A stretch of DNA of 64,000 nucleotides from a virus, in the IMG/VR virus record IMGVR_UViG_3300022074_000006, positions 1-64,000 of that record. One strand, given 5' to 3'. The notes beneath the pieces were generated by a model that saw only the letters and a program-made list of their open reading frames with translations, was not told the DNA's origin and ran no database searches. The translations under genes and the position numbers were made by a program. Shown piece after piece: positions 1 to 60,293 of this stretch (its first letter is position 1; each line of letters starts with the position of its first letter).

Positions 1-37
1 CTGTATTTCTGTATTTCTGTATTTCTGTATTTCTGTA
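1..37. repeat. Tandem 8-bp repeat (CTGTATTT)x4 plus partial CTGTA, truncated by the window start
   Basis: Read directly from positions 1-37. The unit is not a multiple of 3. Confidence 0.95.
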
Positions 38-107
38 ATCAGTTAACAGATATCTAGTAATTGTGTTCCCTTATTATTAGAATACCTTCCTCATTTTAAA
101 TGTTTAA

Positions 108-136
108 TTGAACAAAAAAAAATGTTCACGTATTGT
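108..136 (+). promoter_or_regulatory. Candidate sigma70-type promoter for the glycan island, overlapped by an inverted repeat
   Basis: TTGAAC(108-113)-17 nt-TATTGT(131-136). TGAACA-A8-TGTTCA inverted repeat at 109-128. Confidence 0.45.
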
Positions 137-193
137 ATTAAAGTTCCCTTCGCACAGCTCTAGAGCTATAGTTTTAAATTTCAGAGGTTTTTT

Positions 194-2116
194 ATGTTCG
201 ATCAAAATCATTTTGGTGAAAGCCAAGTTCCAAAAATAGAAGAAGATACTCAAGTTATCTTTGTAGCGGATTTTTTCGTAGAAGATATTCAGGGAGGAGC
301 CGAACTTACAACAGAGGCTTTGATTAAAAAGGCTCCTGTCAAGGTCCAGAAAATTAAGTCTACTCAGCTGAGTCTCAATATTTTAGAGCAGGGACAAGAC
401 TGTTTTTGGATATTTTGTAATTATGCGGGGATGGACCCACAACTGATACCCACAATTGTAACGAATATCAAATATTCGATAGTTGAATATGACTATAAGT
501 TTTGTGCTTTCAGGTCTATAGAAAAACACAAAGCTGAAACTGGAAATGAATGCAATTGTCACAACGAACCCATAGGAAAGATGGTTTCTGCTTTTATGTA
601 CGGAGCAAAATCAGTCTGGTTCATGTCGGAAAAACAGCATTCACTCTACATAGAAAAATTTCCTTTTCTTTCTGAAGTAGACTCAACTGTGCTAAGCAGT
701 ACATTTTCAGACGAAGCATTCGCTGCGATGAACGTTCTAAGAGACAAGTACCTAGGTAAAAAGAATGACAAGTGGCTTGTTCTGGGATCTACTAGTTGGA
801 TAAAAGGGACAGACAATGCTATAGCTTGGTGCAAGGAAAACAATCATGAATACGAAATTCTAGAAAACCTGTCTCATGGTGAATGTCTCGAGAAGCTAGC
901 ACAGTCAAAAGGTTTAGTTTTTCTTCCAAAGGGTGGCGATACATGTCCTAGAATAACAATCGAAGCAAAAATGCTGGGATGTGAACTGCACTTAAACGAA
1001 AACGTTCAGCACAAAGACGAAGAGTGGTTTGCTACTAGTGATACTTTAACTTTTGAGTCCTATTTGTACGCTGCTCGAGATGTGTTCTGGAATGGTATAA
1101 TTGAAAAAATAAGCTGGTCTCCAACGATTTCTGGCTACACAACCACAAAAGATTGCATCGAGCATGCTTATCCCTGGAAACAATCTATAGAATCGATGCT
1201 TGGATTTTGTGACGAAGTAATAGTAATGGATGGAGGGTCTGCAGATGGAACATATGAAAAGTTAATAGAGTGGGCTTCCAAAGAAGAAAAGCTTAAAGTT
1301 TTTCAAGCAAAGAGAGATTGGAACCATCCAAGATTTGCCGTCTATGATGGAGCACAAAAAGCACTTGCTAGAAGTAAATGTACTATGGATTTTTGCTGGC
1401 AGATGGATGCTGACGAAGTAGTTCATGAAGAAGATTACGACAAAGTCAAAAGTTTGATCAAGAAATTTCCAGGCCAAGTTGATCTAGTTTCTCTTCCGGT
1501 CATAGAGTATTGGGGATCTCCATCAAAAGTTAGAATGGATATAACACCATGGAAATGGAGACTAAGTAGAAACATGCCTACTTTTACGCACGGGATTCCT
1601 AAAGAGCTTAGACTTGAGGATGAAAATGAACAGCTTTACGCCTCTTTGGGGACAGATGGTTGTGACTATGTAGACAGCGAAAATTATGAAAGAATTCCTC
1701 ATGCTTCTTTTTACACTCATGAAGCTGATGACATGCGAATGAAAGCGCTTCAGGGCAACAATGAAGCGATGAAAAACTACGAGGAATGGTTTAACAGGGC
1801 AGTCGACATGCTTCCCTGCGTCCATCATTACTCATGGATAGATATTCCTAGAAAAATAAGAACCTACAAGAATTACTGGTCACAGCATTGGCAGAGCTTG
1901 TACAATATTGAACAGGAAGACACCCCGGAGAACAACATGTTTTTCGACAAAAAGTGGAGTAATGTCACAGATTCGGAAATAAAAAAGCTGGGAGAAAAAC
2001 TAGCTTCGGAAATGGGAGGCTGGATTTTTCATGACAAGGTCGACTTTTCTAGAAAGACTCCTCACATAACTGTAAAAAGAGAGCAACCTCAGATTATGGT
2101 TAATAATAAAAAATGA
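194..2116 (+). CDS. Two-domain glycosyltransferase (N-terminal GT-B/GT4-like, C-terminal GT-A/GT2-like)
   Basis: N-half has DTCPRITIEAKMLGCEL (GT4-type donor-binding helix). C-half has FCDEVIVMDGGSADGT and WQMDADEVVHE (GT2 DxD). Confidence 0.8.
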   Translation: MFDQNHFGESQVPKIEEDTQVIFVADFFVEDIQGGAELTTEALIKKAPVKVQKIKSTQLSLNILEQGQDCFWIFCNYAGMDPQLIPTIVTNIKYSIVEYDYKFCAFRSIEKHKAETGNECNCHNEPIGKMVSAFMYGAKSVWFMSEKQHSLYIEKFPFLSEVDSTVLSSTFSDEAFAAMNVLRDKYLGKKNDKWLVLGSTSWIKGTDNAIAWCKENNHEYEILENLSHGECLEKLAQSKGLVFLPKGGDTCPRITIEAKMLGCELHLNENVQHKDEEWFATSDTLTFESYLYAARDVFWNGIIEKISWSPTISGYTTTKDCIEHAYPWKQSIESMLGFCDEVIVMDGGSADGTYEKLIEWASKEEKLKVFQAKRDWNHPRFAVYDGAQKALARSKCTMDFCWQMDADEVVHEEDYDKVKSLIKKFPGQVDLVSLPVIEYWGSPSKVRMDITPWKWRLSRNMPTFTHGIPKELRLEDENEQLYASLGTDGCDYVDSENYERIPHASFYTHEADDMRMKALQGNNEAMKNYEEWFNRAVDMLPCVHHYSWIDIPRKIRTYKNYWSQHWQSLYNIEQEDTPENNMFFDKKWSNVTDSEIKKLGEKLASEMGGWIFHDKVDFSRKTPHITVKREQPQIMVNNKK

Positions 2117-7306: not shown

Positions 7307-7574
7307 AGAAAAACTAGTAGAGAAAGTTGAATTATATTTTTCTACAAAAATGGCTAGAAATACAAATTGGCATTCTGCGGCAGCTAGAAGAATTGCAGCA
7401 GAATTAGCAGTTTCTGCAATAGCTGAAGAATACGAAAAAGCAGAAAAAAGAAAGAGAAAAAAACGTGAAAATTTTAGTAACCGGTGTAAAAGGTGTAGTT
7501 GGAACAAAGCTTCGAAACTCTCTGGAAAAAAAGGGTCACGATGTTTTCGGTGTAGACCTGTATCACGCAGATGA
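7293..7574 (+). CDS. Small basic hypothetical protein (3' end uncertain)
   Basis: Fills the otherwise empty 7307-7464 gap and overlaps the upstream stop, but runs 110 nt into the next gene out of frame. Confidence 0.35.
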   Translation: MKKIKEKLVEKVELYFSTKMARNTNWHSAAARRIAAELAVSAIAEEYEKAEKRKRKKRENFSNRCKRCSWNKASKLSGKKGSRCFRCRPVSRR

Positions 7575-14170: not shown

Positions 14171-15020
14171 GAAAATACTAGTTACAGGTGGTTTAGGATT
14201 TGTCGGATCTCATCTAGTTGACGAGCTATTAAAAGACAAAAACAATAAGGTTACTGTTATAGACAACTTATGCTCTGAGTCTTCTAGTAAAAACTACATG
14301 AGAGACGAAGCTGATTATATCATTGATGATATCCGAAATCTCTCGAACGTATTTTATAAAAGCTTAGAGTTTGATGTCATTTATCACCTGGCAGCTTTAG
14401 CTAGAATTCAACCTTCTTTTAAAGACCCCATGAAGTACATGTCAATCGATATCATGGGAACTGCAGAAGTTTGTGACCTGGCTAGAAGGTGCAATTCTAG
14501 AATTATTTACGCAGGATCTTCTTCAGCTTTCGGCGGTCCGATGCTTAACCCATATGCTTTTGCAAAATTTACTGGTGAGCAAACATGTGAAATGTTTACA
14601 AAGGTTTTCGGTGTCAAAACTTCAATAGCAAGATTTTTTAACGTGTATGGAAAAAGGCAGCCCACTACCGGCCCCTATGCTACAGTAGTAGGAGTCTTTG
14701 AAGAGCAAAAAAGAAATAATCAGCCCCTAACAGTGACGGGAAATGGAGAGCAGAGAAGAGACTTTACACATGTAGAAGATATAGTTCTAGGTCTGATTGC
14801 GATGGAAAGGGACGAAGGTGACTCTCATGTATATCAACTAGGGACCGGAAAAAACTACTCCATAAATGAACTAGCTAAAATGTTTTCATCCAACATAGAA
14901 TACATACCCGAAAGGCCTGGTGAAGCTTGGACGACATTGGCTGACATAAAAGACGCAAATGAAATTCTTGGGTGGAGCCCTTCTGTTTCTTTAGAAGAAT
15001 ACATCAAAGACCTGAATTGA
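14163..15020 (+). CDS. NAD-dependent epimerase (UDP-glucose 4-epimerase-like SDR)
   Basis: KILVTGGLGFVGSHL, HLAA, YAFAK, RFFNVYG, GNGEQRRDFTHVED. Confidence 0.9.
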   Translation: MTKKILVTGGLGFVGSHLVDELLKDKNNKVTVIDNLCSESSSKNYMRDEADYIIDDIRNLSNVFYKSLEFDVIYHLAALARIQPSFKDPMKYMSIDIMGTAEVCDLARRCNSRIIYAGSSSAFGGPMLNPYAFAKFTGEQTCEMFTKVFGVKTSIARFFNVYGKRQPTTGPYATVVGVFEEQKRNNQPLTVTGNGEQRRDFTHVEDIVLGLIAMERDEGDSHVYQLGTGKNYSINELAKMFSSNIEYIPERPGEAWTTLADIKDANEILGWSPSVSLEEYIKDLN

Positions 15021-15029
15021 AAATTTTTC

Positions 15030-15058
15030 TTAAAAAAAGTAATGATCTGTTGTATTAT
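15030..15058 (+). promoter_or_regulatory. Candidate sigma70-type promoter giving a leaderless transcript
   Basis: TTAAAA(15030-35)-17 nt-TATTAT(15053-58), ending 5 nt before ATG 15064. No SD motif. Confidence 0.35.
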
Positions 15059-15063
15059 TAAAC

Positions 15064-15894
15064 ATGAAAGTTAATTTTCCTACCGGTAAACCTCACATAT
15101 CATTTTCTGAATGGAAGTCCTGGAAAGAGTGCCCATTTAGGCATAAGCTGGCATACATTGACAAAATAGATACTTTTCAACCCTCACCCTTTTTAGACTT
15201 TGGAACAGCAGTTCATGAAGGGGCTGAGTCTTTCTTAAATGAGGGATCAGTCCCCAGAGAGAAACTAATAAATGAAATTAGAGAAGCCTGGCTGAAAAAT
15301 GGTTTCGACAAAAAAGAATGGGTAGAGAAACAGCCAGGGTGGTACAAGTACCACCCAGTTGAAGAGTGGGTTGACTGGGCAAACAACATGTGGGATGAGA
15401 TTCCCGATTATCTTGACAAAGAATTTCCAGGATGGAAGCCGGTAATAGCTGAAGAACAGCTCTATGAAGAAATTCCTGGAGTTGATGTCAAATTTAAAGG
15501 TTTCATAGACGTAATAATAAAACAGCCCAGAAAAAACGGAACATGGAAGTATTGGATCTTAGACTGGAAGACTGCTTCACCTCGAGGGTGGTCTCGAGAT
15601 AAAAAGCAAGATTTCAATATGCAGGCTCAGCTGATCCTATACAAACACTTCTGGGGGACTAAACATAATATTAACATGAGAGACATAGGATGCGGTTTTG
15701 TTTTGCTCAAGAGGGGCGGAAAGAAAGGAAACATATGTTCTCTAGTGAATGTTAGTGCTGGACCAAAGATGATTGAAAAGGCTCAAAAAACTACGAGGTC
15801 CATGATAAAGTCTGTAAAGAAAGGTATGTTTTTGAAGAATAGAAATTCATGTACTTTTTGTGACTTTAAAAATACAGAATATTGCCCGAGTTGA
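15064..15894 (+). CDS. PD-(D/E)XK (Cas4/AddB/RecB-like) exonuclease with probable Fe-S cluster
   Basis: SFSEWKSWKECP, GTAVHE, FKGFIDVII, ILDWKT, QLILY, C-terminal CTFCDFKNTEYC. Confidence 0.88.
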   Translation: MKVNFPTGKPHISFSEWKSWKECPFRHKLAYIDKIDTFQPSPFLDFGTAVHEGAESFLNEGSVPREKLINEIREAWLKNGFDKKEWVEKQPGWYKYHPVEEWVDWANNMWDEIPDYLDKEFPGWKPVIAEEQLYEEIPGVDVKFKGFIDVIIKQPRKNGTWKYWILDWKTASPRGWSRDKKQDFNMQAQLILYKHFWGTKHNINMRDIGCGFVLLKRGGKKGNICSLVNVSAGPKMIEKAQKTTRSMIKSVKKGMFLKNRNSCTFCDFKNTEYCPS

Positions 15895-15896
15895 GA

Positions 15897-17162
15897 ATGA
15901 CAGAAAAGAAAAAAATATTAATGTTGTCAGACCACGCCCTGAGCACATCAGGTGTAGGATGTCAAAGTCGTTTTTTAGTGAACGGTCTTTTAAAAAAGAA
16001 TGAGTGGACTGTTAGACAGTTAGGTGCAGCCATATCACATGAAAACTATGATGTTGTAAAAGTCACAGATGATTTCTATATCAAGCCCGTAGATGGTTTT
16101 GGAAATCCAGAAATGATAAGACAAATCCTTGTTACCGAGAAGCCTGATCTTATTTTTATTTTTACGGATCCTAGGTTTTTTACTTGGCTTTGGGAGATGG
16201 AAGACGAAATACATCAAGTTTGTCCAATTGCCTACTGGCATGTGTGGGACAACTACCCAAGCCCTGAATACAATAAAGTATTGTACGACTCTACAGATCT
16301 CGTCAATTGTCACAGCTATTTGACATACAATATTGTCAAAGAAATGTTTCCGGATAAAGCAGGATTCATTCCTCACGCATTACCTGATGAAGTTTTTTAT
16401 GAAATGTCAGAATCAGAAAAAGTATCAGCTAGAAATGGAATGATAGGCCCGGGATATGAAGATGCTTTTATATCACTTTGGGTTAATAGAAATGCGAAGA
16501 GAAAACGGCCCGGAGACATGATTTGGGCATGGAGTAAATTTATCAAGAAAGTCAAGGAAAGAGAAGGTTCTAATTTTAAGAATGATGCTTTTCTTTTTAT
16601 GCACACGGATCCAAACGACCCAGAAGGACCAAACCTTTACGAAAACATAAAGCTGATGGACGTGGTTGATTCTGTAATACTTTCACCAGACCGAGTTGAC
16701 TTTGCAAAAATGAACGAAATTCACAACGGCGTAGACTGTTGTATACAAATTAGCTATGCTGAAGGTTTTGGTTTGTCAACTTTAGAATCAATGCAGTGTG
16801 CTAATCCCATTATTGCTGTAAAGACTGGAGGTCTGACTCGACAGGTTGTTGACCACCGCGACGGAACAGAAAACGGAATCGGGCTAGACGTAGAATTCCA
16901 GTCAATCGTAGGTTCACAACATGTTCCTTATATATTTGAAGACTATGTGTCAACCGACACTATTGCTGATGCTTTATTGACAATGTATGACATGTCGAAA
17001 GAAGAAAGAAATTCTCTGGGAAGAAAGGCCAAAAAATATGTCCGTGAAGAATTTGGTTATCAAAAAACTATAGACTTGTGGCATGACTCTTTGAAAAATC
17101 TAGTCGAAGACTGGAAAGAAAACAAGGAAAAAAGAAAGCAATGGACCCTACAGTCACTATAG
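15897..17162 (+). CDS. Glycosyltransferase family 4 (GT-B)
   Basis: KILMLSDHALSTSGVG, NRNAKRKRP, SYAEGFGLSTLESMQCANPIIA. ATG 15897 is in frame with the track start 15882. Confidence 0.9.
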   Translation: MTEKKKILMLSDHALSTSGVGCQSRFLVNGLLKKNEWTVRQLGAAISHENYDVVKVTDDFYIKPVDGFGNPEMIRQILVTEKPDLIFIFTDPRFFTWLWEMEDEIHQVCPIAYWHVWDNYPSPEYNKVLYDSTDLVNCHSYLTYNIVKEMFPDKAGFIPHALPDEVFYEMSESEKVSARNGMIGPGYEDAFISLWVNRNAKRKRPGDMIWAWSKFIKKVKEREGSNFKNDAFLFMHTDPNDPEGPNLYENIKLMDVVDSVILSPDRVDFAKMNEIHNGVDCCIQISYAEGFGLSTLESMQCANPIIAVKTGGLTRQVVDHRDGTENGIGLDVEFQSIVGSQHVPYIFEDYVSTDTIADALLTMYDMSKEERNSLGRKAKKYVREEFGYQKTIDLWHDSLKNLVEDWKENKEKRKQWTLQSL

Positions 17163-21553: not shown

Positions 21554-23401
21554 ATGGCAAACGACATAAGAGATAAAGTTAAAAAGTCTAGAGAGAGATC
21601 TTTTCTAGCAAAAGATTTCGATGGTTTTAGAGTCCAACTTTTGGACTATGCAAGAGTTTATTTTGCTGATAACATCCAAGACTTTTCAGAATCTTCTGTT
21701 GGCGGTCTATTGTTAGATATGGCTGCTTATGTCGGTGATACTATGTCGTATTATCTAGACCACCAGTATAGAGAGCTAGATCCTGTTCGTGCTGTCGAAA
21801 GAAGAAATGTAGTTAGGCACATGGTGAACGCCGGCCTAGAAGTACCAGGACCCAGTCCTGCTTCTGCTAAGTGTAAAATCTCTATCACGGTCGACTCAGA
21901 AAAAGACGGAAATGGTGATTATGTGCCAAAAGCAACTCAGCTTCCGATTTTCAAAACCGGGACGACCGTTACATCTCCGGGAGGAATAATTTTTAATTTG
22001 ACTTCTGATGTAGACTTTGCTGAAAAAGACACGTTGGGAAACATGAAAGGTGAAGTCTCAGTCGTAAGTGTTGATGGAAATTCAAACCCTGTACAGTTCA
22101 GAGTCTCCAGAGAAGAATTTTTTGTATCAGGTCAAGAAACAACTGAAGAGTTTGACATAAGTTCAGTTCATGTACCTTTTAGAGAATTGACTCTTACAAA
22201 CCCAGACGTGACTGAGATAGTAGAGGTACATGACCTAGAAGGAAAACCTTACTATGAAGTAGAGACTCTTTCTCAAGATACTGTCTTTGTTCCCGTAACA
22301 AACGTCAAATCTGACAAAGATGAAGTCTCTAAAAATTTAGAAGTCCGACCAGCACCTAGAAGATTTACGAAAAATCGAGATCCTGACTCTGGTTTTACGT
22401 CTATTAGATTCGGCTCCGGAGACGCAAACACATTAGATAACGACATCGTTCCTGATCCTTCAAAGATATCTTTGCCTCTCTACGGCAGAAAGTCTATTAA
22501 GAGGTTCGCTATAGATCCTTCTTCAATACTCAACACTAAAACTCTTGGAGTTTCCCCAAAAAACACGACAATTACAGTTAGATATAGATTTGGTGGAGGG
22601 TTAAGTCATAATGTAGGCGCAAGATCTATTACTGAAGTAGGAGCGATTGTCACAGTATTTCATCAGGATGCTACTGAGAATGAAAAAACTAATGTTAGAA
22701 GCTCTATGGAGGTAGTAAATACTCTTCCAGCTAGGGGTGGTGATGTTGAGCCCACAATCGATGAAATGAGGGCGTCAATAGCTGTAGCATCTCAGTTTCA
22801 AGGTAGAATTGTCACTAAGCAGGACGTTTTAGCTAGGCTTTACACGCTTCCTGGAGAATTTGGAAGAGTCTTTCGAGCTGGGATAAGAGAAAATCCTATA
22901 AACCCACTATCCTCCAGGCTTTTTATTCTTACAAGAGGTGCAGCCGGAGATCTTCAAATAGCACCTGACACAATGAAAAACAACATAGCAAACTACTTGA
23001 ACGAATTTAGACTAGTCTCAGAGTCTATTGAAATACTGGACGGTAGGGTTTTAAACTTTGGAATAAGGTTTCAGGTAGTCACAAAACCAAATGCAAATAA
23101 GGAATCTGTCTTGCAAGGGATTATAAACGAGCTTTCCCTGATGTACGAAATAAGAAATATGCAAATAGATCAGCCCTTGGTTCTAGACGACATGAGATAT
23201 TCAATACTTCAAAATCCTGGTGTGGTTACTCTAAAGAACTTGGAGATAATTTCTAGAGTTGGAGTCGTGGCAGACAGAGACTATAGCACAGAATCGTTTG
23301 AAAAGACTTCTATTGTCAAGAACGGTCTAGTAGTCGGTCCGCCCGGATCAATATTCGAACTTAAATTTCCTGAGTTTGACATAATTGGGAGCACAACCTA
23401 A
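21554..23401 (+). CDS. Baseplate wedge protein, T4 gp6 / baseplate J-like
   Basis: KDFDGFRVQLLDY, DFSESSVGGLLLDMAAYVGDTMSYYLDHQYRE, IRFGSG, RIVTKQD. Confidence 0.9.
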   Translation: MANDIRDKVKKSRERSFLAKDFDGFRVQLLDYARVYFADNIQDFSESSVGGLLLDMAAYVGDTMSYYLDHQYRELDPVRAVERRNVVRHMVNAGLEVPGPSPASAKCKISITVDSEKDGNGDYVPKATQLPIFKTGTTVTSPGGIIFNLTSDVDFAEKDTLGNMKGEVSVVSVDGNSNPVQFRVSREEFFVSGQETTEEFDISSVHVPFRELTLTNPDVTEIVEVHDLEGKPYYEVETLSQDTVFVPVTNVKSDKDEVSKNLEVRPAPRRFTKNRDPDSGFTSIRFGSGDANTLDNDIVPDPSKISLPLYGRKSIKRFAIDPSSILNTKTLGVSPKNTTITVRYRFGGGLSHNVGARSITEVGAIVTVFHQDATENEKTNVRSSMEVVNTLPARGGDVEPTIDEMRASIAVASQFQGRIVTKQDVLARLYTLPGEFGRVFRAGIRENPINPLSSRLFILTRGAAGDLQIAPDTMKNNIANYLNEFRLVSESIEILDGRVLNFGIRFQVVTKPNANKESVLQGIINELSLMYEIRNMQIDQPLVLDDMRYSILQNPGVVTLKNLEIISRVGVVADRDYSTESFEKTSIVKNGLVVGPPGSIFELKFPEFDIIGSTT

Positions 23402-26394
23402 TGTACTTAATACTGACAGCTAGCAAAGATAACTACATAACTAATAAAATTATTTCAAATGGTCCTGCTTTTTCTAAGAGAAGTGTGGCTACTTTAAACT
23501 TTGGCGGAGGAATGGATTCCAACACAAAGATTACGATAACCAGCACTGACTTATTGGCAAAAACTTATCTGGTGATTCAAAATGGACATGGATCTATAGC
23601 TAACGGAGACCTAATAGAAATAGGAGACACTCCGGAGGGTCCAAACACATCATCATCCGGGGAAATTGGAATTTCAGGCGGGACTGTTGCTGTCAACGCA
23701 AAAATAACGTTAATCTCTACAGATACTACTTCCTTGACTTACATAGGTGCTACAGAAGGGGGGTCCGTCGCGACCGGAAAATCTCTTGCCATTGGAGATG
23801 ATCCTGATGGGGAAGGAAATATAGCAGGAGGAGACCCTAGGATTGGAATGATAGCCTTTCAAGTAGGAACAAATGCTGCATCCGGTGCAAATAATCTTCA
23901 GACTGCCATTAACTCTGGAGCAGGTCATAACTCCGGAACTCCTAATTCAAAAATCTCTATAAGCAATGACGGAGCCGGAAAACTAACGCTTACACAGGTC
24001 ACAGCCGGCTCTGCAGGAAACACTAATATAGTAGAAGAAGGAGACTCAACAAACGTTATTACTGTTACAAATTTTTCAGGTGGCAACACTTACACAGCGA
24101 TAGTCGGCGGAGACGAAAGAATAGGGATGACAGCAATTCATGCAGGTAACAGTGCAGGAACTGCAGCAAACAATGCGCAAACTGCTATCAATAGCGCAAA
24201 TGGAAACAACTTGGGTGAGTCTGACTCCAAAATTATTATCGCGAACAACGGCGCCGGATCTCTTGTCCTGACACAGGCAGTTGCCGGAGAATCCGGCAAT
24301 CAAAGAATTGTGATAACATCTGACACAAACAATGTTATCACACTGGCAGACGAAGGTTTTGCAGGCGGTAAGACAGCTGCACCCATAAGAGCAACAGATG
24401 CCAATGTCGGACAGGCAGGTACCTTGGACATTTTCAAGCTATACGGAGAAAATACAATAGCAGGAAACGAAGACGACTTGATTGAGTTAAGCAGAGCCTT
24501 GATAAAGTTCGATCATGATGCTATCATTTCTCACTTGTCTAAAAGCTTGGACATAAACAGTGTCAATTTTAAAGCTGAGCTTAGACTTAGAGACATAACA
24601 ACAGGCAGAGCTGCACCTTCTAACTTTACATTGATGGCTCTTCCCCTTTCTAAGTCTTTTGATGAAGGGATCGGAAGATCTGTTTCGACATTTAACGACT
24701 TAGATATAGCTAACTTTGTGACTGCTTCTTTTGTAGGAAGTCAACCTGTTTTGTGGAATGTTGAAGGGGCGAACGCAACAGGTTCTGCACCTGGAAACTG
24801 GGATGCTTTGACAGCGGTTCAAGCTCGATCGCCATATTCAGGTGCACCAAACTCTGATCCCGCTAATTCTCCAACCACAGTCAATCTCAAATCAACTTTT
24901 ACTGCGGTTCGAGGAGACGAAGATGTTATTTTTGACGTGACAAACGCAGTTTCTTCTACGTTAAAGTCAGATATTGCAAATCACGGATTTAGAGTTAGCT
25001 TTGAAGAGAGTGAAGAAAACAACAAACAAACTTATTTTATTAAGCGACTAGGGTCTAGACACGTTAGAAACATAGATCTTAGGCCTGAGCTTCATGTTTT
25101 CTGGAATGATTCGCAAATAGACAGTTTAGAAAATGCAGAATTTGACTCGGACAACAGCGTGTATCTAAAAAACTACAAAAAGGGAATGCCTAAAAACATA
25201 AGATCAGGTACAGTCGGAGGAGATCCCGCTACTACCACAATGTCAGACATTGCAGGTGCAAACTGCATGAAGCTTATACTTTCCAAAAGTGAACTAAAAA
25301 AGACGTATAACGTTTCCCAAGTCCTAAAGGGAACAGACAGTACAGGTGAAGAAGGAAATTATACTGCTTCTTTTAACATAGACTTGTTTTCAAGTGATGT
25401 TCTAGTTGCCAGTAAGTCCGGGTCTACAACGATTACTTTCCTAGGTGGTCCACTGGACTTGAATACAAAAATTACTTTTTCTTCCACAGACGGGACTTCT
25501 AAGTCTTATCTTGCAATCACAGAAGACCATGGATCTATCGCTAACGGAGACTTAATACAAGTAGGAGATAATCCGGACGGATCTGGAGCAATAATTGCAG
25601 GGGACGAAAGAATAGGTTCTGTTGCTTTTATGGCAGGAAGCAGCAACGTTGATGCTGCAAATAATTTTGCTGCTGCTATAGACTTGGCAAATGGTCACAA
25701 TGCCGGTAATGCTAATTCAAAAATTACAATAGCAAACAACTCTAAGGGTGTAGTGACTTTGACACAAACTACTGCGGGTGGACTAGGTAACAGAAGCATT
25801 GATGTCGTGGGAGACAGCTCCCGAAGACTTAGGTTTACTCGAAACTTCTATAAGTTCACAGGAGGATCAGATTCAAAGACAGTTGAAAAAGAAGCGAGAG
25901 TTTCCGGAAGCATTACATTTGATGTATTCTGGAAGTCCAATGATGAAACTGTTACCTATCATAAAACGAAAATAAAAGTCCGAGATAATTCAGTAGGTCC
26001 GCATGGTCATGGAACTCAAACACCTTCAATTACAATGTCAAACTTGAAGTCTATGTATTCTCAAAAAGATGAAGTCAGAATAAGAGTTTTCCCCTTTGAT
26101 ATGAACGAAGACTTTAAGAACCCAGTGAAGATTCCTCACTCTAGAAAACCTTCTTACGTAGGCGACATTTACTGGAGACTGGTAAATGAAACCACGGGCC
26201 GGGTGATGATCGATTATGAAAAGAACATGGGTTCAACAAAACTTAGTTTTGATAAAGAAGGGTATTATTTTGATTTCTCAATGTCAGTACCTCCGCCTGG
26301 CGTGACGTGCAGGTTTGAGTTCTGCAGGGAAAATCAAGGAAAGGCTCAGATAATGATGCAAAGAAGATTTGCAAGATTTAGGGTGATCAAGTGA
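23401..26394 (+). CDS. Baseplate/tail structural protein (DNRLRE-like carbohydrate-binding core) carrying three copies of the insertion module
   Basis: TASKDNYI...ATDANVG...SRALIKFD...RPELHVFW pattern. Position directly after gp6. Repeated module visible in the sequence. Confidence 0.7.
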   Translation: MYLILTASKDNYITNKIISNGPAFSKRSVATLNFGGGMDSNTKITITSTDLLAKTYLVIQNGHGSIANGDLIEIGDTPEGPNTSSSGEIGISGGTVAVNAKITLISTDTTSLTYIGATEGGSVATGKSLAIGDDPDGEGNIAGGDPRIGMIAFQVGTNAASGANNLQTAINSGAGHNSGTPNSKISISNDGAGKLTLTQVTAGSAGNTNIVEEGDSTNVITVTNFSGGNTYTAIVGGDERIGMTAIHAGNSAGTAANNAQTAINSANGNNLGESDSKIIIANNGAGSLVLTQAVAGESGNQRIVITSDTNNVITLADEGFAGGKTAAPIRATDANVGQAGTLDIFKLYGENTIAGNEDDLIELSRALIKFDHDAIISHLSKSLDINSVNFKAELRLRDITTGRAAPSNFTLMALPLSKSFDEGIGRSVSTFNDLDIANFVTASFVGSQPVLWNVEGANATGSAPGNWDALTAVQARSPYSGAPNSDPANSPTTVNLKSTFTAVRGDEDVIFDVTNAVSSTLKSDIANHGFRVSFEESEENNKQTYFIKRLGSRHVRNIDLRPELHVFWNDSQIDSLENAEFDSDNSVYLKNYKKGMPKNIRSGTVGGDPATTTMSDIAGANCMKLILSKSELKKTYNVSQVLKGTDSTGEEGNYTASFNIDLFSSDVLVASKSGSTTITFLGGPLDLNTKITFSSTDGTSKSYLAITEDHGSIANGDLIQVGDNPDGSGAIIAGDERIGSVAFMAGSSNVDAANNFAAAIDLANGHNAGNANSKITIANNSKGVVTLTQTTAGGLGNRSIDVVGDSSRRLRFTRNFYKFTGGSDSKTVEKEARVSGSITFDVFWKSNDETVTYHKTKIKVRDNSVGPHGHGTQTPSITMSNLKSMYSQKDEVRIRVFPFDMNEDFKNPVKIPHSRKPSYVGDIYWRLVNETTGRVMIDYEKNMGSTKLSFDKEGYYFDFSMSVPPPGVTCRFEFCRENQGKAQIMMQRRFARFRVIK
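23485..24369 (+). repeat. Insertion module copy 1 (outer), interrupted by nested copy 2 at about 23641-24090
   Basis: Copy 1 N-part KITITSTD..HGSIANGDLIEIGDTP and C-part AIVGGDERIG..AANN..AIN..SKI..LTQ..GN..FAGG are separated by a complete second copy. Confidence 0.85.
25420..25866 (+). repeat. Insertion module copy 3 (uninterrupted reference copy)
   Basis: KITFSSTD..HGSIANGDLIQVGDNPDGSGAIIAGDERIG..AANN..GHNAG..SKI..LTQ..GN..FTGG. Confidence 0.85.
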
Positions 26395-30719: not shown

Positions 30720-33203
30720 ATGAGCAAGTTTGCTATTCAAAATATAAAATACAGACCAACAATAAACTTCAGAGCAGGACCGGGCGACGGGTTCGCGTAC
30801 ACGATGTCTAATGCTGTTCTAAATTGGTGGAGCTTAGAGAGTGTAAACATTGAGCCGACTGATGCAGCAACGTATAGATCTGAAGATCACGTCGATGCTA
30901 GAAGCAAAATACCTTTGATTTACGCTTCAAATGCGGCAAGATCACACGTATCAAGCGACGTCCCCTCTAGAAAAATAACTAAAAGTTCTATCAAGTTCGG
31001 AAATACAGGTCAGATAGCTCAGACTAGTACAAATGCAGTTAGTTTTGCTAATACGTCAATTAGTTCCGGAGATGATCCCTTTAGTATTTCTTTTTGGGCA
31101 AAAAAAGTGGGCGGCGACGCCAGTTCAAAGATAATCATTGCAAATTCAAGCCCGTCTGGCTACACTAGTAGGAGAGAGTATACAGTTGCTTTTGCTTTAG
31201 GCACTCAGCCTATATTGGAAGTATACGGAAATCAAGATTTAAGTGAGTCAATATCAATAAAAGCCCAGCATGCTTCGTCACTCTTAAGTAGTTCAGAGTG
31301 GAAGCATTATGTTTTTTCGTATTCGGGGAAGCCCATCTTCAACGGATCTACAATGGCAAGTTCTGGATTGAAAATCTATGTAAACGGTGAGGTTCAGACT
31401 TCAAATCTTGCACAGCAACTAGAAGATGACTATTCCGGGATGAGAACAAATCCTTTGAATGTTTTTACAATTGGAGATGTCGGTGGAGGCGGAAATATTC
31501 TTCTTTCTGATTTGATAGTTTTTAACAAAGAAATTGACTCTGATTCTGTTAAAGCTTTGTACTACTCCAAAGACGGATCATTCATAAGAACTAGAAACTA
31601 TCTTAAAAAAGGTTCAAAAGTTAGTTCTCCTGAGGGGTCTGAGATTGACGGCTTTAGAGAGGGCGTGAGCATCCGAAACGGTGAAGACCTGTCCACGTCA
31701 ATAAGAATGAAAATACATTCAACTTTAGACTTTGTAAGAGCACACTCAGGTTCTGCAGTCTCAGTTGACTCTCCTTTTGATGACGCAAACATTCCTTTTT
31801 ATGTAGCACAAGATTCCGGAAGCTACAAGGGAGTTTTGGACTCTACTAGAGGTCATAGCGGCTATAGTTCAGTCCTCCTTCACGAAGTTGAAAAAAGAGA
31901 CTTTGGAATTTTCAACAGGCACCAAGACGGAACCCCTTTTAACGATACTCTTTTCGACACTCCACAGAAGGTACTTGAGGATGTGAGAACGATTGCAGGA
32001 GATCCTGACGATCGACACCTGAGGGTTTATATAGGTGAGACTCCAAACGAGCTCTACAATTCAACAGACGTTTATGACAAAGAAGCCCGAGTAGACATCT
32101 TCGAAAGAAGTATTGATTTAAGGTCAATAATTCCGGACCTAAGAGACGGAGAAAGAGATTTTACTAGAAGATCCAGAAGGCTTACAAGAAGTGGATCGAT
32201 GACCATACCTGCACGTACAAGAGGGTTTAGTGGAGAATGTAACTGTATTGGAATTACAGATGTTAGATTTAATGACAACAGAGAATCTTCAATCCCCTTT
32301 TACGAAGTCTATAGAGAAGGAGACATGCACTTTACTTCATCGGCAGTCAAGGATGGATATATGCATGCAGGACGAGGAACAATAGAAACTATCTTAAGTC
32401 AATCTTCCGGACCACGACATATTGATACATCTTACAGTAGGAGGTCTGAGCCTTACGGTGTGTATGCTCAGTCGACAGTTGATACTTTCTACGGTTTGCC
32501 AGGAGCAGACAAGCTTCAGGGCAGGACGTTTACAGCGAGATATAGGGTAAGCTCAGCTGACAAACCCTTTAGAGACGAGTCTAAGGAAACTTTCGTTGAA
32601 GAGAAGTTTAATTCTTCAAATTTTAATTTTGATGCAGGAGTCGGAGCTTCAGCTCAATTAGTTTATGGAATTGGTGCGAACCTTAGTAACCTAGATACAA
32701 TCACCATAACGTCCACGGACCAGACAACAAAGTCTTATAGAATCTCCTCCGGAGGAGGCCTTTCATCAGGAATGGTTGTCGGAAACAAAATTGTTGTTGT
32801 CTTGGGAGCCAACAACAGTGCGACTGCCGCCCAAATAGTGGCTGCGATAAATACATCAAATGGTCATAACGCCGGTACTCCCAACAGTAAAATAATCTTA
32901 GAGCAGGCAGCCATCAATGATGACGAAGGCACGATTACGTTCACTCAAGCAGTTGGTGGAACTGCAGGAAACACAGCAGTCACTAAGAATCAATCAGGAG
33001 ACTTTACTGTGACAAACTTTTCTGGAGGAAAACAGTCTGATAACAAAGACTTCGTAGATACTCTAAAGAAAATGTACATGACTGGGTCTTCTATTCACGA
33101 AGGTCCCCAGACGGGTTATACTATTTCCACTAGAGGAATCCAGGGAGATACAGGCCAGTATAAGACTGACTCAATTGTCTTTGTAGGAATGAAGAGGAAC
33201 TAA
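30720..33203 (+). CDS. Structural protein with N-terminal LamG-like domain and one insertion module
   Basis: FSISFWAK, EWKHYVFSY, KIYVNG, LSDLIVFNKEI. Module at 32646-33029. Confidence 0.7.
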   Translation: MSKFAIQNIKYRPTINFRAGPGDGFAYTMSNAVLNWWSLESVNIEPTDAATYRSEDHVDARSKIPLIYASNAARSHVSSDVPSRKITKSSIKFGNTGQIAQTSTNAVSFANTSISSGDDPFSISFWAKKVGGDASSKIIIANSSPSGYTSRREYTVAFALGTQPILEVYGNQDLSESISIKAQHASSLLSSSEWKHYVFSYSGKPIFNGSTMASSGLKIYVNGEVQTSNLAQQLEDDYSGMRTNPLNVFTIGDVGGGGNILLSDLIVFNKEIDSDSVKALYYSKDGSFIRTRNYLKKGSKVSSPEGSEIDGFREGVSIRNGEDLSTSIRMKIHSTLDFVRAHSGSAVSVDSPFDDANIPFYVAQDSGSYKGVLDSTRGHSGYSSVLLHEVEKRDFGIFNRHQDGTPFNDTLFDTPQKVLEDVRTIAGDPDDRHLRVYIGETPNELYNSTDVYDKEARVDIFERSIDLRSIIPDLRDGERDFTRRSRRLTRSGSMTIPARTRGFSGECNCIGITDVRFNDNRESSIPFYEVYREGDMHFTSSAVKDGYMHAGRGTIETILSQSSGPRHIDTSYSRRSEPYGVYAQSTVDTFYGLPGADKLQGRTFTARYRVSSADKPFRDESKETFVEEKFNSSNFNFDAGVGASAQLVYGIGANLSNLDTITITSTDQTTKSYRISSGGGLSSGMVVGNKIVVVLGANNSATAAQIVAAINTSNGHNAGTPNSKIILEQAAINDDEGTITFTQAVGGTAGNTAVTKNQSGDFTVTNFSGGKQSDNKDFVDTLKKMYMTGSSIHEGPQTGYTISTRGIQGDTGQYKTDSIVFVGMKRN
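32646..33029 (+). repeat. Insertion module copy 4
   Basis: TITITSTDQTTKSY..AAINTSNGHNAGTPNSKI..FTQAVGGTAGNT..TNFSGG. Confidence 0.85.
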
Positions 33204-33204
33204 A

Positions 33205-36200
33205 ATGCCTAGGATTGAACGTAAATCTATTACACAAAACTTCGACATAAGTACCATAGATCCTTTTGAAAACACAGGATCAGCCTCGTCAGGTGCTGTT
33301 GTCGTTCAAAAAAGCGTTGAATTAATCGACCAGCCGAACAAAGAGCCAGGAACTGTTAATTTTGGATCTGCGGCCGAAGTCGGCACCATGCAAAATATCG
33401 AACCAGGAACAAAAGTCATCTTGTTGGGTCGACAAAGCGCTGAAGCCGGCAATGCAGCTTCTCACCAGGATCGTTTTTTTTACTTAAATAAAAAGTACTC
33501 GGGAAACCCAAAGATCACTGTTTCGATTACAGCGATTTGCGGAGACAATACAACCGATCCTGCAGTAATTCGACAGGGAGGCAGTGTCCTAGAATTGTCA
33601 ACACCTGAAAACGCGTCGGGTGACATATTGGAATTACAACACTCTGTGGACGGAGACACATGGACAACGTTTAGAAATGTCAGACCCCATGATGCAGGGA
33701 ACGGTGTTCGAGATCTTACCTTTTCAGAGTTTAGAACAGTCACAACGACTTTTACACCACCTGATGGTCAAAGTGTCTACATAAGAGTGAACCAGAAAAA
33801 TTATCACGGCAACACTCATGACCACTACGCTGTCAAGAGTCTGGTAGTTGACGAATCGGGTGGCAATAGATCAACCTACGGGGGAGGCAATAGGATGGCC
33901 TCTGGTTTTACAACTCTAAATCCGAAGATTGTTCAGATCATTCACGATAATTCAGAGTCAGATTCTTATGTGGCACAAAACCTATCTATTAAAAATAGAA
34001 GAAACATCTCTAAAAGCATAAGAAATTCGTCTTTTGACGACCAGAAGGAATTGAGACCTCCCAATACAACCAGAAAAGAAGTGATCTCCATATCCGTTAA
34101 ATCAGCCCGGGGTCTCATAGACAGGTGCAAGATATTCATCAGAGGAGCTGATGGAATTGAGATGAAGTCATATGCTTTTGTTTCATCTGACAGAGATGAC
34201 ATTGAATCTTTTGAGGGAGGATTGACCGCAGCCGATACAAAAATAAATATTTTGACTGAATTAAGAAAGATTCCTTTTAAACTGAGGAAAAAAAGGGCTT
34301 CTATTGCAAGGGCAATTGCCAGCTCTTTAGCACAAGCAATAGAAGCTGATAAGTCTCTCAAGATAAAAGCACGATCTTCTGACAACAAAGTATACCTTGA
34401 AGATCATTACGTAGAAAGCGCAGTTCCACACCCAGTGCGTTACATCTCTGGTATCTCACCACCCAGAGCAATACAGCACCCAGCCAAAGCGATTAGATAC
34501 GCGCGGGGTACGCACACAAACTTAGCTAACACCGAAGAGGGAAAAACGATCACGATAGTGGATGCTCAGGGTCTCAAGAGAGTTTACGCTCTAGTAAATT
34601 CTTCTCAGACTTCAATGACCACCGGAACTGTAATTAATACCGGAGATGATATAGGATCTGGAACTGCAAGCAGCGGTTTAAAGGGAGCCATAGCAGTTGC
34701 TGTTAACATATCATCAACACTATCGTCGACTACCCTGAAGGAGTTGAAAGTTGCGATAAATCACAAAAATGGTCACGGAAGAAGAATTTCTGTGAGTGAT
34801 GTCTACGAGACTATAACGTATGGGTACATGCAAATTAGATCAGCTGTCCCTCCCTTGAGAGAAGGTCAAGGGATTCAGGTGTCAGAAAATACTGCGTCAT
34901 TTACTCTAGTCGATACAATTAGAGATGAAACTTCTATGGGACCTCCTACTGCTTCTATCACTTTTTCTTCTCTGCCAGCAGTTAATTCGTATATTGAGAT
35001 TAGACCTAGAGACAATGTCTTAAAAAGATATGTTTCGTGTAGATCAGACGGAGATGTTAACACGGGAGATACTCTTAAGTCGGGAGACATTGTAGATGGT
35101 CCAGGTACAGCAGTTGGAGCCGCCGGAATCGGAGGAGTTGCTGTCGTTGCCAACGATCGCTCTAATTTTGAAGAACAGTTTGTAAAGGCAATCAATTCAA
35201 AAAACGGTCAAAGGGGGAAGGTTAAAATTAGAAAAGTCGTACCACTAGCAGGTGCGAACGAGTACGTTTTGACGGACAAAACTAGTTCAAAGTATTCTTT
35301 TGATACTTGGGGTACACAATCAGTCACGTCTACGGCTGGCGGAGCAGCAACAGTCAGCACATGGAAAGGAGCTTCAGGAGGAAAAATAGTTGAAGCCATA
35401 CAGGGGGATGAAAAGTCTGTTAGTTCTATCAAGGTTGAAATTGTGTCCTATGGCGGCCCGACTCCAGATATCATTGCTGGAATAAACTATACTAATATAG
35501 ATGTCGCCAAAGAGGCTGGTGTCAATGACCACAAAGCCCCAGACATTCAGTTTCGATCTCCTGTTTTGCATGGATCAGGACCAAATAAAAATATCTTTAA
35601 TCCTACCACAGGATCTTTTAATCCTTTTAAAGAAGTGGGCCTATATGAATCATTCGATGGAGAAACAGGTCCTGGTGTCAACTTAGAGCACACGTACGTA
35701 GCTAGACAAAATGAAGCCTCTTTGACGTCTGCTCTTGGTAAAGGTTTTGAGGGTTCACTTTCTTCAAAAGAGTGCATAGAAATAGAGTTGGACGGATCAG
35801 GAGCTACTACGGCCACTATATATCGATCAGGCAATGGCGCCGGAGATAATCTTAGACCCTCCATGGCTTATCTTTCAAAGACAGGTGTGTGGACTCCCTT
35901 GACTCACGACCCACCTTGTGACACGCGTTTTCCAGGAGCACAAAGCTCTCAGTTTCCCAATCCATTGGCCGCCATCTCAGCTTTGTATCATCAGATATCT
36001 GAGAGAGCTATGATAGGATTTAGCCAAAACTATTCTATGTTAATATCTCGATTAGAAAACTCTACTTATATTGAGAGATCATCTTTAGGAATGTCCGAAG
36101 AGACTTTTGAATCTGAAAAAGAAAGGTTTGCTTTTGTAGAAGGTGCTCCAAGTTCTTGCATTAACACTTTTGGTTTTCCTTCTCACCCTAAGTTTTCTCG

Positions 36201-60284: not shown

Positions 60285-60293
60285 GAGGGCTTG

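What the first reader, a model, noticed from the sequence alone, without database searches (positions are those of the whole stretch)
23485..24369. Matryoshka domain: a protein module inserted inside another copy of itself
Uninterrupted copy 3 reads HGSIANGDLIQVGDNPDGSG-AIIAGDERIG. Copy 1 reads HGSIANGDLIEIGDTPEG, then a complete 150-aa copy 2 (KITLISTD...GDDPDGEG...GGDPRIG...GHNSG...LTLTQ...TNFSGG), then resumes YTAIVGGDERIG and finishes normally. So copy 2 sits in the GDxPxG loop of copy 1. Copy 1 itself splits the host N-terminus between TASKDNYITNKII and RATDANVG. In-frame self-nesting would give a telescoping stalk on the baseplate.
Basis: seen in the sequence. Interest (0 to 1): 0.82.

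Follow-up and report, generated by a model that had tools for sequence, protein, structure and literature searches.

The report
Phage domain nested inside its own copy
A 997-residue tail/baseplate-region protein of an uncultured marine jumbo phage carries a ~145-residue surface module with a complete second copy spliced into one of its own loops; relatives show the empty, single and deeper-nested states, so it is a real example of a rare but already described way for proteins to grow.

Summary
In ORF 23401-26394 (997 aa), a module profile matches aa 29-83 (profile 1-56), aa 86-229 (profile 1-147), aa 232-324 (profile 55-147) and aa 675-822 (whole). Copy 2 therefore sits exactly at the break in copy 1.

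Most of the ~600 family members are bare ~510-aa proteins in which NKII..RATDANVG is joined directly. The 849-aa orthologues carry an uninterrupted copy 1. One relative (P0003) holds a 301-aa insert in the same loop.

An AlphaFold2 model of aa 1-345 (pLDDT 65) gives two domains of one fold. Single PDB domains superpose on model range 26..322 or on 84..227. A split-chain prediction of the two outer halves scored 0.78 against 0.00 for controls. All parts are under purifying selection (dN/dS 0.05-0.10).

The module has no Pfam family. Its fold matches phage sheath insertion domains, the T7 nozzle domain and FliD/flagellin outer domains. It recurs in sheath and fibre proteins. The carrier is a CBM96-like jelly-roll followed by two Ig-like domains.

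A precedent exists: in Geovibrio flagellin, D5 is a duplicate of D4 inserted in one of its loops (PMC11532411). I class this as a new variant of a known kind. The "telescoping stalk" is untested. The scan's first readers had already noted the portable module on this same record.

The parts
23401..26394 (+). ORF of 997 aa (P0001): the carrier protein with three module copies
   Evidence: Intact orthologues occur in independent metagenomes (P0002 94% identical). dN/dS is 0.07 overall.
23401..23463 (+). Carrier aa 1-21: first strands of the CBM96-like jelly-roll, cut off from the rest of that domain by copy 1
   Evidence: Mapping to bare homologue P0028 residues 1-21. In the P0028 model, residues 1-248 match 8wab_B at Z 18.0, rmsd 2.6 A, 172 aligned.
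23485..23640 (+). Copy 1, N-terminal half (A1, aa 29-80): strand a, beta1-beta2 hairpin and the HGSIANGDLIEIGDTPEG hairpin
   Evidence: hmm 1-56. 61% identical to the A part of copy 3. AF2 strands E29-34, E43-47, E53-59.
23641..23655 (+). N-side linker PNTSS (aa 81-85) between copy 1 and copy 2
   Evidence: pLDDT is below 50 at aa 81-86. The same PEGPN junction is present in P0003.
23656..24087 (+). Copy 2 (aa 86-229): a complete, contiguous module nested in copy 1
   Evidence: hmm 1-147, E 2.2e-67. PDB domains align to model range 84..227. dN/dS 0.10.
24088..24093 (+). C-side linker (aa 230-231, TY)
   Evidence: NT[YF][TS]AI is shared with P0003.
24094..24372 (+). Copy 1, C-terminal half (B1, aa 232-324): beta3, helix, beta4-beta7 and the closing F-x-G-G strand
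   Evidence: hmm 55-147, E 5.3e-43. Predicted to interleave its strands with A1, score 0.78 vs best control 0.00.
24385..25107 (+). Remainder of the carrier's CBM96-like jelly-roll (aa 329-569)
   Evidence: Mapping to P0028 residues 22-248. VIA 8wab_B Z 18.0 and 7vbo Z 15.9. Weak sub-threshold DNRLRE_dom hit at aa 488-552, E 0.052.
25120..25407 (+). Carrier Ig/macroglobulin-like domain 1, N-terminal part (aa 574-669)
   Evidence: Mapping to P0028 residues 253-340. Beta-sandwich hits over 253-385.
25423..25866 (+). Copy 3 (aa 675-822): an uninterrupted module inserted in a loop of Ig-like domain 1
   Evidence: hmm 1-146, E 9.5e-75. It lies between P0028 residues 340 and 344. It is orthologous to the C copies of the 849-aa homologues (tree, 100/98).
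25873..25995 (+). Carrier Ig-like domain 1, C-terminal part (aa 825-865)
26011..26391 (+). Carrier Ig/macroglobulin-like domain 2 (aa 871-997)
   Evidence: P0028 residues 391-514 match MG/Ig domains at Z 8-9.4. Mapping.

Best explanation
The gene encodes a virion protein of an uncultured marine jumbo-size myophage. It lies in the baseplate/fibre gene block.

The carrier has a CBM96-like jelly-roll followed by two Ig-like sandwiches. It is decorated by a portable ~145-aa module. The module's order of elements is strand a, beta1-beta2, a second hairpin, a loop, beta3, a helix, beta4-beta7 and a closing F-x-G-G strand. Its fold is that of phage sheath insertion domains, the T7 nozzle domain and FliD/flagellin outer domains.

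The module always occurs spliced into loops, so its two ends must lie together. It can therefore be pasted in frame into any exposed loop.

In this lineage one copy (copy 1) sits in the first hairpin turn of the jelly-roll. A second complete copy (copy 2) was pasted, with linkers of 5 and 2-4 residues, into copy 1's own GDxPDG loop. A third copy (copy 3) sits in a loop of Ig-like domain 1. The polypeptide thus runs out through half of copy 1, makes all of copy 2, and returns through the other half of copy 1. This is a carrier > copy 1 > copy 2 nest, the hairpin topology of flagellin.

Shown here: the sequence nesting, the empty and single-copy alleles, purifying selection on every part, and predicted folding of both copies.

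Inferred: the nest arose by insertion of a whole module; the modules are surface-exposed; and they extend reach or add weak binding sites for host surface glycans.
For: Split profile coordinates are 1-56 | 1-147 | 55-147, and a 450-nt surplus lies between shared DNA landmarks.

MAFFT places contiguous copy 3 and four other whole C copies onto aa 29-80 plus 235-323.

Empty-site alleles: most of the 604 family hits are ~500-520 aa, with query aa 329 aligned to their residue 22. The 849-aa orthologues have an uninterrupted copy 1 at the same carrier site.

The module or similar-sized inserts occur at five or more carrier sites. These map to turns or loops of a pLDDT-95 model of the bare homologue.

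AF2 model of aa 1-345: the same secondary-structure order appears twice. Single ~100-residue PDB domains align to model range 26..322 (8kee_C Z 10.0, rmsd 2.5, 94 aligned; 9cba Z 10.0, rmsd 2.3, 94 aligned). Related domains align to 84..227 (8i4m_A Z 7.5, rmsd 2.3, 86 aligned; 8e4g_P Z 6.8).

Split-chain prediction (ESMFold2): aa 25-84 with aa 230-327 scored 0.78, best of 3 controls 0.00. That mark was reached by 58 of 80 solved complexes and 2 of 110 mismatched pairs, roughly, because my own alignments were used. Runs agree in at least 98% of contacts and partner pLDDT is at least 84. Strands interleave a1-beta5, beta2-beta3 and beta1-beta6.

dN/dS against P0002: copy 1 0.05, copy 2 0.10, copy 3 0.06, carrier 0.07.

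The nest is present in independent assemblies.

The module also occurs in sheath proteins and Laminin_G_3 giants and in three other ORFs of the window.
Against: The AF2 model is only moderately confident (mean pLDDT 65, pTM 0.49). The inner copy had only 2 alignment rows.

I chose the alignment rows so that MAFFT laid homologue halves on the outer copy. The model is therefore not an unbiased test of the pairing.

No coordinates are returned. The nesting of the model is read from first and last aligned residues only.

The tree does not show where copy 2 came from. Copies 1 and 2 are both long branches and are not resolved as sisters. The A parts and B parts give different nearest neighbours.

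Runs of B-part-only hits in P0176/P0177 suggest the B half may sometimes stand alone.

Function and virion location are untested.
Confidence: 0.8

Rival explanations
1. The same A1-A2-B2-B1 order arose from two separate tandem duplications of half-modules (A to A-A, then B to B-B), not from insertion of one whole module. The final fold would still be nested.
For: B1 and B2 are each other's closest B parts (55% vs 47-48%). The tree does not place copy 2 as a unit with any donor. B-only arrays may exist in P0176/P0177.
Against: A1 is closer to A3 (61%) than to A2 (45%), the opposite of what an A-A tandem duplication predicts. Copy 2 has complete module ends plus short linkers. The A and B halves interleave in one sheet, so A-A-B or A-B-B intermediates would carry an unpaired half. 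No such intermediate is among the 195 proteins fetched. Whole modules are seen pasted at five or more other loops.
Confidence: 0.1
2. The order is nested in sequence but the domains pair crosswise: A1 folds with B2 and A2 with B1, an intertwined pair rather than a nest.
For: The single N copy of the 849-aa orthologues is closer to B2 (58-60%) than to B1 (48-50%), and MAFFT aligns it A to A1 and B to B2. The split-chain test cannot tell B1 from a close cousin (notes).
Against: The A2-B2 connection has the native loop length and sequence (GDDPDGEGNIAGGDPRIG). In the AF2 model compact single domains span 26..322 and 84..227, not 26..229 and 86..322.
Confidence: 0.06
3. The arrangement is an assembly chimera or a decaying pseudogene segment with no folded product.
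For: None beyond the metagenomic origin of the record.
Against: The same 997-aa architecture is found in other samples at 94% identity with no indels and dN/dS 0.05-0.10 in every part. P0003 shares the junction residues. The frame is open with conserved neighbours.
Confidence: 0.01

Closest known systems
Geovibrio thiophilus flagellin outer domains D4/D5 (Nat Commun 2024, PMC11532411)
   Same: [quoted passage not shown] Both cases are a homologous domain nested in its own copy. In both, the domains are surface decorations on a filamentous or tail-like machine. The fold neighbourhood is the same as my VIA hits to FliD and FliC.
   Different: That case is a bacterial flagellin; this is a phage virion protein. 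Here the copies keep ~50% sequence identity. Empty, single and deeper states coexist in one orthologous family. The module is also spread over several other virion proteins. I did not compare the two structures directly.
FliD (HAP2) D2-D3 and flagellin FliC D2/D3 outer domains
   Same: Fold-level matches: 4nx9 Z 8.0, rmsd 3.1, 100 aligned; 5h5v_E Z 7.7, rmsd 2.5, 96 aligned; 5fhy_A Z 7.7, rmsd 2.7, 101 aligned. From established structural knowledge, these proteins have the same out-and-back nested topology.
   Different: There is no sequence-family match (Pfam and NCBIfam give none). Z is around the level the tool calls 'middling'. The carrier here is not an axial coiled-coil protein.
Insertion domains of contractile-tail sheath proteins (cyanophage A-1(L) 8kee_C residues 92-186; phiTE 9cba residues 60-179) and the T7-like nozzle gp12 domain (residues ~146-247)
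   Same: These are the best structural matches: Z 10.0, rmsd 2.3-2.5, 94 aligned for the sheaths, and Z 6.6-8.1 for the nozzle proteins. They are also loop-inserted, surface-exposed tail decorations. The module itself is found by sequence in giant sheath proteins P0195 and P0178.
   Different: Those solved domains are single insertions, with no copy inside a copy. Sequence identity is 12-16%.
Ig-like decoration domains of phage structural proteins (recalled from the literature: Fraser et al. 2006; not read here)
   Same: The logic is the same: small, dispensable, promiscuously added surface domains that probably give weak adhesion to carbohydrates.
   Different: The fold is different: the module has a helix and matches the sheath/FliD type, while antibody-type hits reach only Z ~2. 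Ig-like domains are, as far as I recall, mostly added at termini or by frameshift rather than nested.
CBM96 carbohydrate-binding modules (8wab chondroitin-sulfate-binding, 7vbo alginate-binding) - applies to the carrier only
   Same: Residues 1-248 of the bare homologue superpose at Z 18.0 (rmsd 2.6, 172 of 176 residues) and Z 15.9.
   Different: Identity is 15-17%. Only a sub-threshold DNRLRE_dom hit was found (E 0.052). Ligand-binding residues were not examined.

Membership tests
Self-nested domain duplication (as in G. thiophilus flagellin D4/D5) | Two copies are demonstrably homologous | tested here: met
   Copy 1 (spliced) vs copy 2 is 50% identical. HMM E-values range from 3.5e-24 to 2.2e-67.
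Self-nested domain duplication (as in G. thiophilus flagellin D4/D5) | One copy is contiguous and lies between two halves of the other that together make one full copy | tested here: met
   hmm 1-56 | 1-147 | 55-147. MAFFT splits copy 3 onto aa 29-80 + 235-323.
Self-nested domain duplication (as in G. thiophilus flagellin D4/D5) | Both copies fold as separate domains of the same fold, with the outer halves reunited | tested here: met
   By prediction only. AF2 plus VIA ranges 26..322 and 84..227 match the same PDB domain types. Split-chain score 0.78 vs best control 0.00. There is no experimental structure.
Phage sheath insertion-domain / FliD-flagellin outer-domain fold | Structural superposition over most of the domain, standing above background | tested here: met
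   Sheath domains Z 10.0 (rmsd 2.3-2.5, 94 aligned). FliC/FliD Z 7.7-8.0. The FliD/FliC values alone would be only 'middling'.
Phage sheath insertion-domain / FliD-flagellin outer-domain fold | Sequence-profile membership in a curated family of these domains | tested here: not met
   No Pfam, PHROG or NCBIfam family matches the module or the whole protein. A PDB profile search gave only BLIP-II at E 1e-3.
Phage sheath insertion-domain / FliD-flagellin outer-domain fold | Occurs as a loop insertion with adjacent termini | tested here: met
   Inserts occur at five or more carrier sites that map to turns or loops. Adjacency of the termini is inferred, not measured.
CBM96 / DNRLRE-type carbohydrate-binding module (carrier N-domain) | Jelly-roll fold match | tested here: met
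   8wab_B Z 18.0, 7vbo Z 15.9, on homologue P0028, which is 42% identical to the window's core.
CBM96 / DNRLRE-type carbohydrate-binding module (carrier N-domain) | Curated sequence model above cut-off | tested here: not met
   NF033679 scored 13.6 bits against a cut-off of 34. Pfam gave none.
CBM96 / DNRLRE-type carbohydrate-binding module (carrier N-domain) | Glycan binding | not testable with these tools
   Needs glycan arrays or binding assays.
Baseplate wedge protein of the gp7 / P2 gpI type (by position after the gp6-like gene) | Homology to gp7/gpI or to the N-terminal helical core that joins the gp6 dimer | tested here: inconclusive
   No PHROG or Pfam hit. The bare-core model is all-beta at its N-terminus. 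Gene order is gp25-like, gp6-like, then this gene. No direct structural comparison with gp7 was made.
Ig-like phage decoration domains | Ig/FN3 sandwich fold of the module | tested here: inconclusive
   The module's best matches are the sheath/FliD type with a helix. Antibody chains reach only Z 2.0-2.2. A listed absence is not proof.

The most novel reading that the evidence does not exclude
Self-nesting may be a regular growth mode of this unannotated module family rather than a one-off. Relatives show a 301-aa insert in the same loop (P0003, probably three levels). P0186 shows module halves in the order N N (N) ... C C C, with five module starts followed by up to five FTGG-type ends (three exact, one variant, one uncertain), i.e. 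a possible 4-5-deep nest at a second loop. If so, phage virion proteins build doubly tethered 'out-and-back' domain stacks from loops. That is the architecture of flagellin, FliD and sheath proteins, and it would hint at a shared pool of outer domains between phage tails and flagella.
Probability: 0.35. Interest if true: 0.7.

Novelty: new variant of a known kind. Interest (0 to 1): 0.55.

Why it matters
Domain insertion is a recognised route of protein evolution, but cases where a domain is inserted into its own homologue are few. They are usually so old that only the fold betrays them.

Here one orthologous family preserves every stage at readable sequence identity: the bare carrier, one copy, two copies at different loops, a copy within a copy, and a still larger insert in the same loop. 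All stages are under purifying selection.

That makes it a natural test bed for three questions: which loops tolerate insertion, how split domains still fold, and whether nested stacks differ from tandem arrays in rigidity and reach.

It also defines a widespread module that no database annotates. The module decorates the sheath, baseplate-region and fibre proteins of uncultured marine jumbo phages and is structurally linked to flagellar outer domains.

For phage biology the practical point is modest. It marks surface-exposed, probably glycan-facing parts of the adsorption apparatus.

Tried and rejected
1. Pfam, PHROGs and NCBIfam on the whole protein and on single copies gave no family. The only hit was a sub-threshold DNRLRE_dom.

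2. tblastn of the protein against 50,697 phage records found nothing. The bare core found only an 18% stretch in Microcystis phage Mel-JY01.

3. The PDB profile search gave BLIP-II (RCC1-like blades) at E ~1e-3, with per-stretch E 0.74. I rejected this as homology because the fold search gives no propeller.

4. Foldseek alone on the nest model gave nothing at E <= 1e-3. VIA-align was needed.

5. I tried to build one alignment that gives depth to both copies. MAFFT either moved all rows to the inner copy, or paired A to A1 with B to B2, or scattered them. I settled on an 'outer-deep' alignment and disclose that choice.

6. Origin of copy 2: the ML tree of 31-32 module copies leaves copies 1 and 2 as unresolved long branches. 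P0003's inner copy is 31-35% identical to everything, with an end branch of 3.56.

7. P0003's innermost ~160 aa: hhalign to the module gave probability 0.2%. Homology of the third level is therefore not shown, although it has a relative in P0192.

8. Junction microhomology: the junction codons were read, but at ~50% identity nothing can be concluded.

9. The search for related loci in IMG/VR gave only 7 loci.

10. The protein atlas returned only unnamed viral clusters.

11. The phiTE paper has no statement on the sheath domain's relation to flagellin.
Full report
**What is at the site.** Window 23401-26394 (+) is a 997-aa ORF (P0001). The record is an IMG/VR virus contig of 133 kb that CheckV rates 42% complete, which suggests a jumbo-size phage. 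All large ORFs in the window lie on one strand and are tightly packed.

Upstream are glycosyltransferase and carbamoyltransferase genes. Next come a gp25-like gene (weak Pfam hit in orthologous loci) and a gp6-like baseplate wedge gene (phrog_219). That wedge protein is ~30% identical to those of Flavobacterium phage immuto and Microcystis phage Mel-JY01. Downstream is a 1442-aa Laminin_G_3 protein. This gene order is conserved in every orthologous contig I fetched, the longest being 278 kb.

At DNA level, two landmarks are shared by copies 1 and 3. In copy 3 the first ends 6 nt before the second begins; in copy 1 the gap is 456 nt, a surplus of 450 nt or 150 aa.

A profile HMM of the module matches aa 29-83 (profile 1-56), 86-229 (1-147), 232-324 (55-147) and 675-822 (1-146), with E-values from 3.5e-24 to 9.5e-75. 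An iterated profile and an independent six-frame search of the record give the same break at profile position 55.

Spliced copy 1 is 51% identical to copy 3 and 50% to copy 2. Every half-to-half comparison has z >= 10.9 against shuffles. When homologue halves anchor the alignment, MAFFT itself lays the contiguous copy 3 onto aa 29-80 plus 235-323.

**Empty-site and other alleles.** A word-index search and an exhaustive HMMER search found 604 relatives.
- Most are ~500-520 aa. Query residue 329 aligns to their residue 22, so TNKII-NN.F-RATDANVG is joined directly.
- Orthologues of 845-853 aa (48-61% identical overall) carry one uninterrupted module at that site (...GxNPDGGGNxxxxDDRIG...) and one further on.
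- P0002 (94% identical, from other samples) has the same nest.
- P0003 (1145 aa) has copy 1 split at the same point by 301 aa. It shares the junction residues PEGPN and TNF[ST]GGNT[YF][TS]AI with P0001.

Aligning all fetched proteins to a profile of the bare core shows inserts of ~110-160 aa at five or more core sites. The iterated module profile matches those at the N-terminal site, at sites 48 and 157, and the C copies of the close orthologues at 301/335. It does not detect several other inserts at 301/335, such as those of P0017 and P0024.

The P0012/14/15 group has its second copy ~25 residues upstream of the site used here. Its two copies cluster together in the tree (95/88). That points to a separate intragenic copy-and-paste event.

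**The carrier.** The bare homologue P0028 is 42% identical to the window's core. With 97 sequences in the alignment it folds at pLDDT 95.4 and pTM 0.91.
- Residues 1-248 superpose on CBM96 carbohydrate-binding modules: 8wab_B Z 18.0, rmsd 2.6 A, 172 aligned; 7vbo Z 15.9.
- Residues 253-385 and 391-514 are Ig/macroglobulin-like sandwiches, with Z up to 9.4.

The insertion sites map to turns or loops of this model. Copy 1 lies between residues 21 and 22, a hairpin turn. Copy 3 lies between residues 340 and 344.

**The module.** No curated family matches it. The protein atlas returns only unnamed viral clusters.

The AF2 model of aa 1-345 has mean pLDDT 65 and pTM 0.49, with pLDDT ~75-89 in the structured cores. 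It shows the same order of elements twice: strand a, beta1, beta2..., beta3, helix, beta4 to beta7.

VIA-align matches single ~100-residue domains of these proteins:
- phage sheaths: 8kee_C residues 92-186, Z 10.0, rmsd 2.5, 94 aligned; 9cba, Z 10.0, rmsd 2.3, 94 aligned
- T7-like nozzle proteins: Z 6.6-8.1
- flagellin: 4nx9, Z 8.0
- the FliD cap: 5h5v_E and 5fhy_A, Z 7.7

By sequence, the module also occurs in giant tail-sheath proteins (P0195 and P0178, Pfam Phage_sheath_1/1C), in Laminin_G_3 giants (P0119, P0174) and in other long proteins. It is also found in three further ORFs of this window.

**Is the fold nested?** Four lines of evidence bear on this.
1. In the VIA table most matches pair a contiguous single PDB domain with model range ~26..322 using only 86-107 aligned residues. 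Others pair the same kinds of domain with 84..227. One compact domain therefore contains both ends of the region, and another is the contiguous middle. Crosswise pairing would give 26..229 and 86..322.
2. A split-chain prediction with a different program (ESMFold2) used aa 25-84 as one chain and aa 230-327 as the other. It scored 0.78 with best control 0.00. That mark was reached by 58 of 80 solved complexes and 2 of 110 mismatched pairs, roughly, because my own alignments were used. Runs agree in at least 98% of contacts and partner pLDDT is at least 84. The contacts interleave strands from the two halves (a1 with beta5, beta2 with beta3, beta1 with beta6). The halves are therefore parts of one sheet, not independent subdomains.
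3. The A2-B2 connection has the native loop sequence and length.
4. Every part is under purifying selection against P0002: dN/dS 0.05, 0.10, 0.06 and 0.07 at dS ~0.35.

There are caveats. The rows of the AF2 alignment were chosen, after local trials, so that MAFFT put homologue halves on the outer copy, and the inner copy had two rows. No coordinates are returned. The split-chain test cannot tell B1 from a close cousin such as B2.

**Origin.** The simplest history is insertion of one whole module into the loop of a resident copy, in the common ancestor of P0001 and P0003, as their shared junctions suggest.

The donor is unresolved. Copy 3 is orthologous to the C copies of the relatives (100/98). 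Copies 1 and 2 are both long branches near the N-copy groups and are not resolved as sisters. The A and B halves give different nearest neighbours. P0003's inner copy is only 31-35% identical to any copy.

Two successive half-module duplications cannot be excluded, but they require unpaired-half intermediates. None is seen among the 195 proteins fetched.

**Deeper nests.** In P0003 the inner copy has its A part at 101-131 and its B part at 301-379. It is itself interrupted by ~160 aa. That segment has a relative in P0192 but no profile similarity to the module. It is probably a third level, but this is unproven.

In P0186, module N-halves come first and C-halves follow. Five module-type starts (aa 104, 146, 229, 303, 393) precede FTGG-type ends at aa 503, 545 and 722, a variant end (AFTGN) at 637 and an uncertain one near 600. 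This is consistent with a 4-5-deep nest that uses the beta4-beta5 turn. None of this was modelled.

**Comparison with what is known.** Nested, out-and-back domain topology is the rule in flagellin, FliD and sheath proteins (established structural knowledge).

A direct precedent for self-nesting has been published. [quoted passage not shown]

The present case differs in several ways. It is a phage virion protein, the copies keep ~50% identity, and all evolutionary stages are preserved in one family. The module is unannotated and is spread over several virion proteins. I therefore class it as a new variant of a known kind.

**Function.** This part is inferred. The module is a surface decoration on the adsorption apparatus. 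The carrier's CBM96-like domain and the many invariant polar residues of the module suggest ligand contact, most likely with glycans. Nesting stacks copy 2 on the tip loop of copy 1 through two short linkers, which should extend reach.

The 'telescoping' idea and the baseplate location remain untested.

**Earlier notes.** The scan's earlier first-reader notes on this record already describe the portable module in several structural genes. My scans agree with them.

Noticed in passing
window 32694-33029 (ORF 30720-33203); 34540-34806 and 34978-35274 (ORF 33205-40278); 61668-61991 and 62070-62435 (ORF 60291-63998, runs off the window): Diverged copies of the same module occur in three other large structural ORFs of the window (HMM E 1e-9 to 1e-15). 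The genome-wide profile search confirms four of them.
   Followed up: partly
P0186 (1827 aa, ENA metagenome protein), aa 100-725: Module halves occur in the order N N (N) ... C C C. Five module starts are followed by FTGG-type ends. This is possibly a 4-5-deep self-nest using the beta4-beta5 turn, a different loop from the one used in the window.
   Followed up: partly
L008 (P0003) 4001-7438, aa 82-382: The same loop of copy 1 holds 301 aa. This is a very diverged module copy (31-35% identical to all others) that is itself interrupted by ~160 aa. That ~160-aa segment is related to a segment of P0192 but not detectably to the module.
   Followed up: partly
L010, L015 (P0014, P0012) vs window 25330-25425: The P0012/14/15 group carries its second module ~25 residues upstream of the site used in the window protein. 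Its two copies cluster together in the tree, suggesting an independent intragenic copy-and-paste.
   Followed up: partly
P0176, P0177 (~1480 aa): These have runs of 7-9 consecutive hits to the B half of the module with few A halves detected. They are either tandem B-only units or a deep nest whose A halves are too diverged to see.
   Followed up: no
window 23564-23639 vs 25505-25580: A 76-nt stretch is 78% identical between copies 1 and 3, more than the rest of these copies. It covers the conserved YL.I...HGSIANGDLI..GD.P.G motif. This could be constraint or an old conversion tract.
   Followed up: no
window 23587-23640, 25528-25590 (A-part hairpin HGSIANGxxLxxGDxPxG): A profile search of PDB sequences gives weak hits (E ~1e-3) to the RCC1-like blades of BLIP-II. 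The fold search does not support a propeller, so this is probably a convergent hairpin motif.
   Followed up: yes
window 21554-23401: The gp6-like baseplate wedge protein has its nearest isolates at only ~30% identity: Flavobacterium phage vB_FspM_immuto, Microcystis phage Mel-JY01 and a 484-kb uncultured phage. The carrier family itself has essentially no match among 50,697 deposited phage genomes.
   Followed up: partly
window 10524-17162: A Nol-like carbamoyltransferase and two glycosyltransferases (PHROG hits) lie directly upstream of the baseplate block.
   Followed up: no
window 26391-26394: The downstream 1442-aa Laminin_G_3 gene starts with a GTG that overlaps the stop of this ORF by 4 nt, suggesting translational coupling. 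The overlap is present in L008 and L011, but not in L009, L010, L012 or L014, where the stop and start share one base.
   Followed up: no
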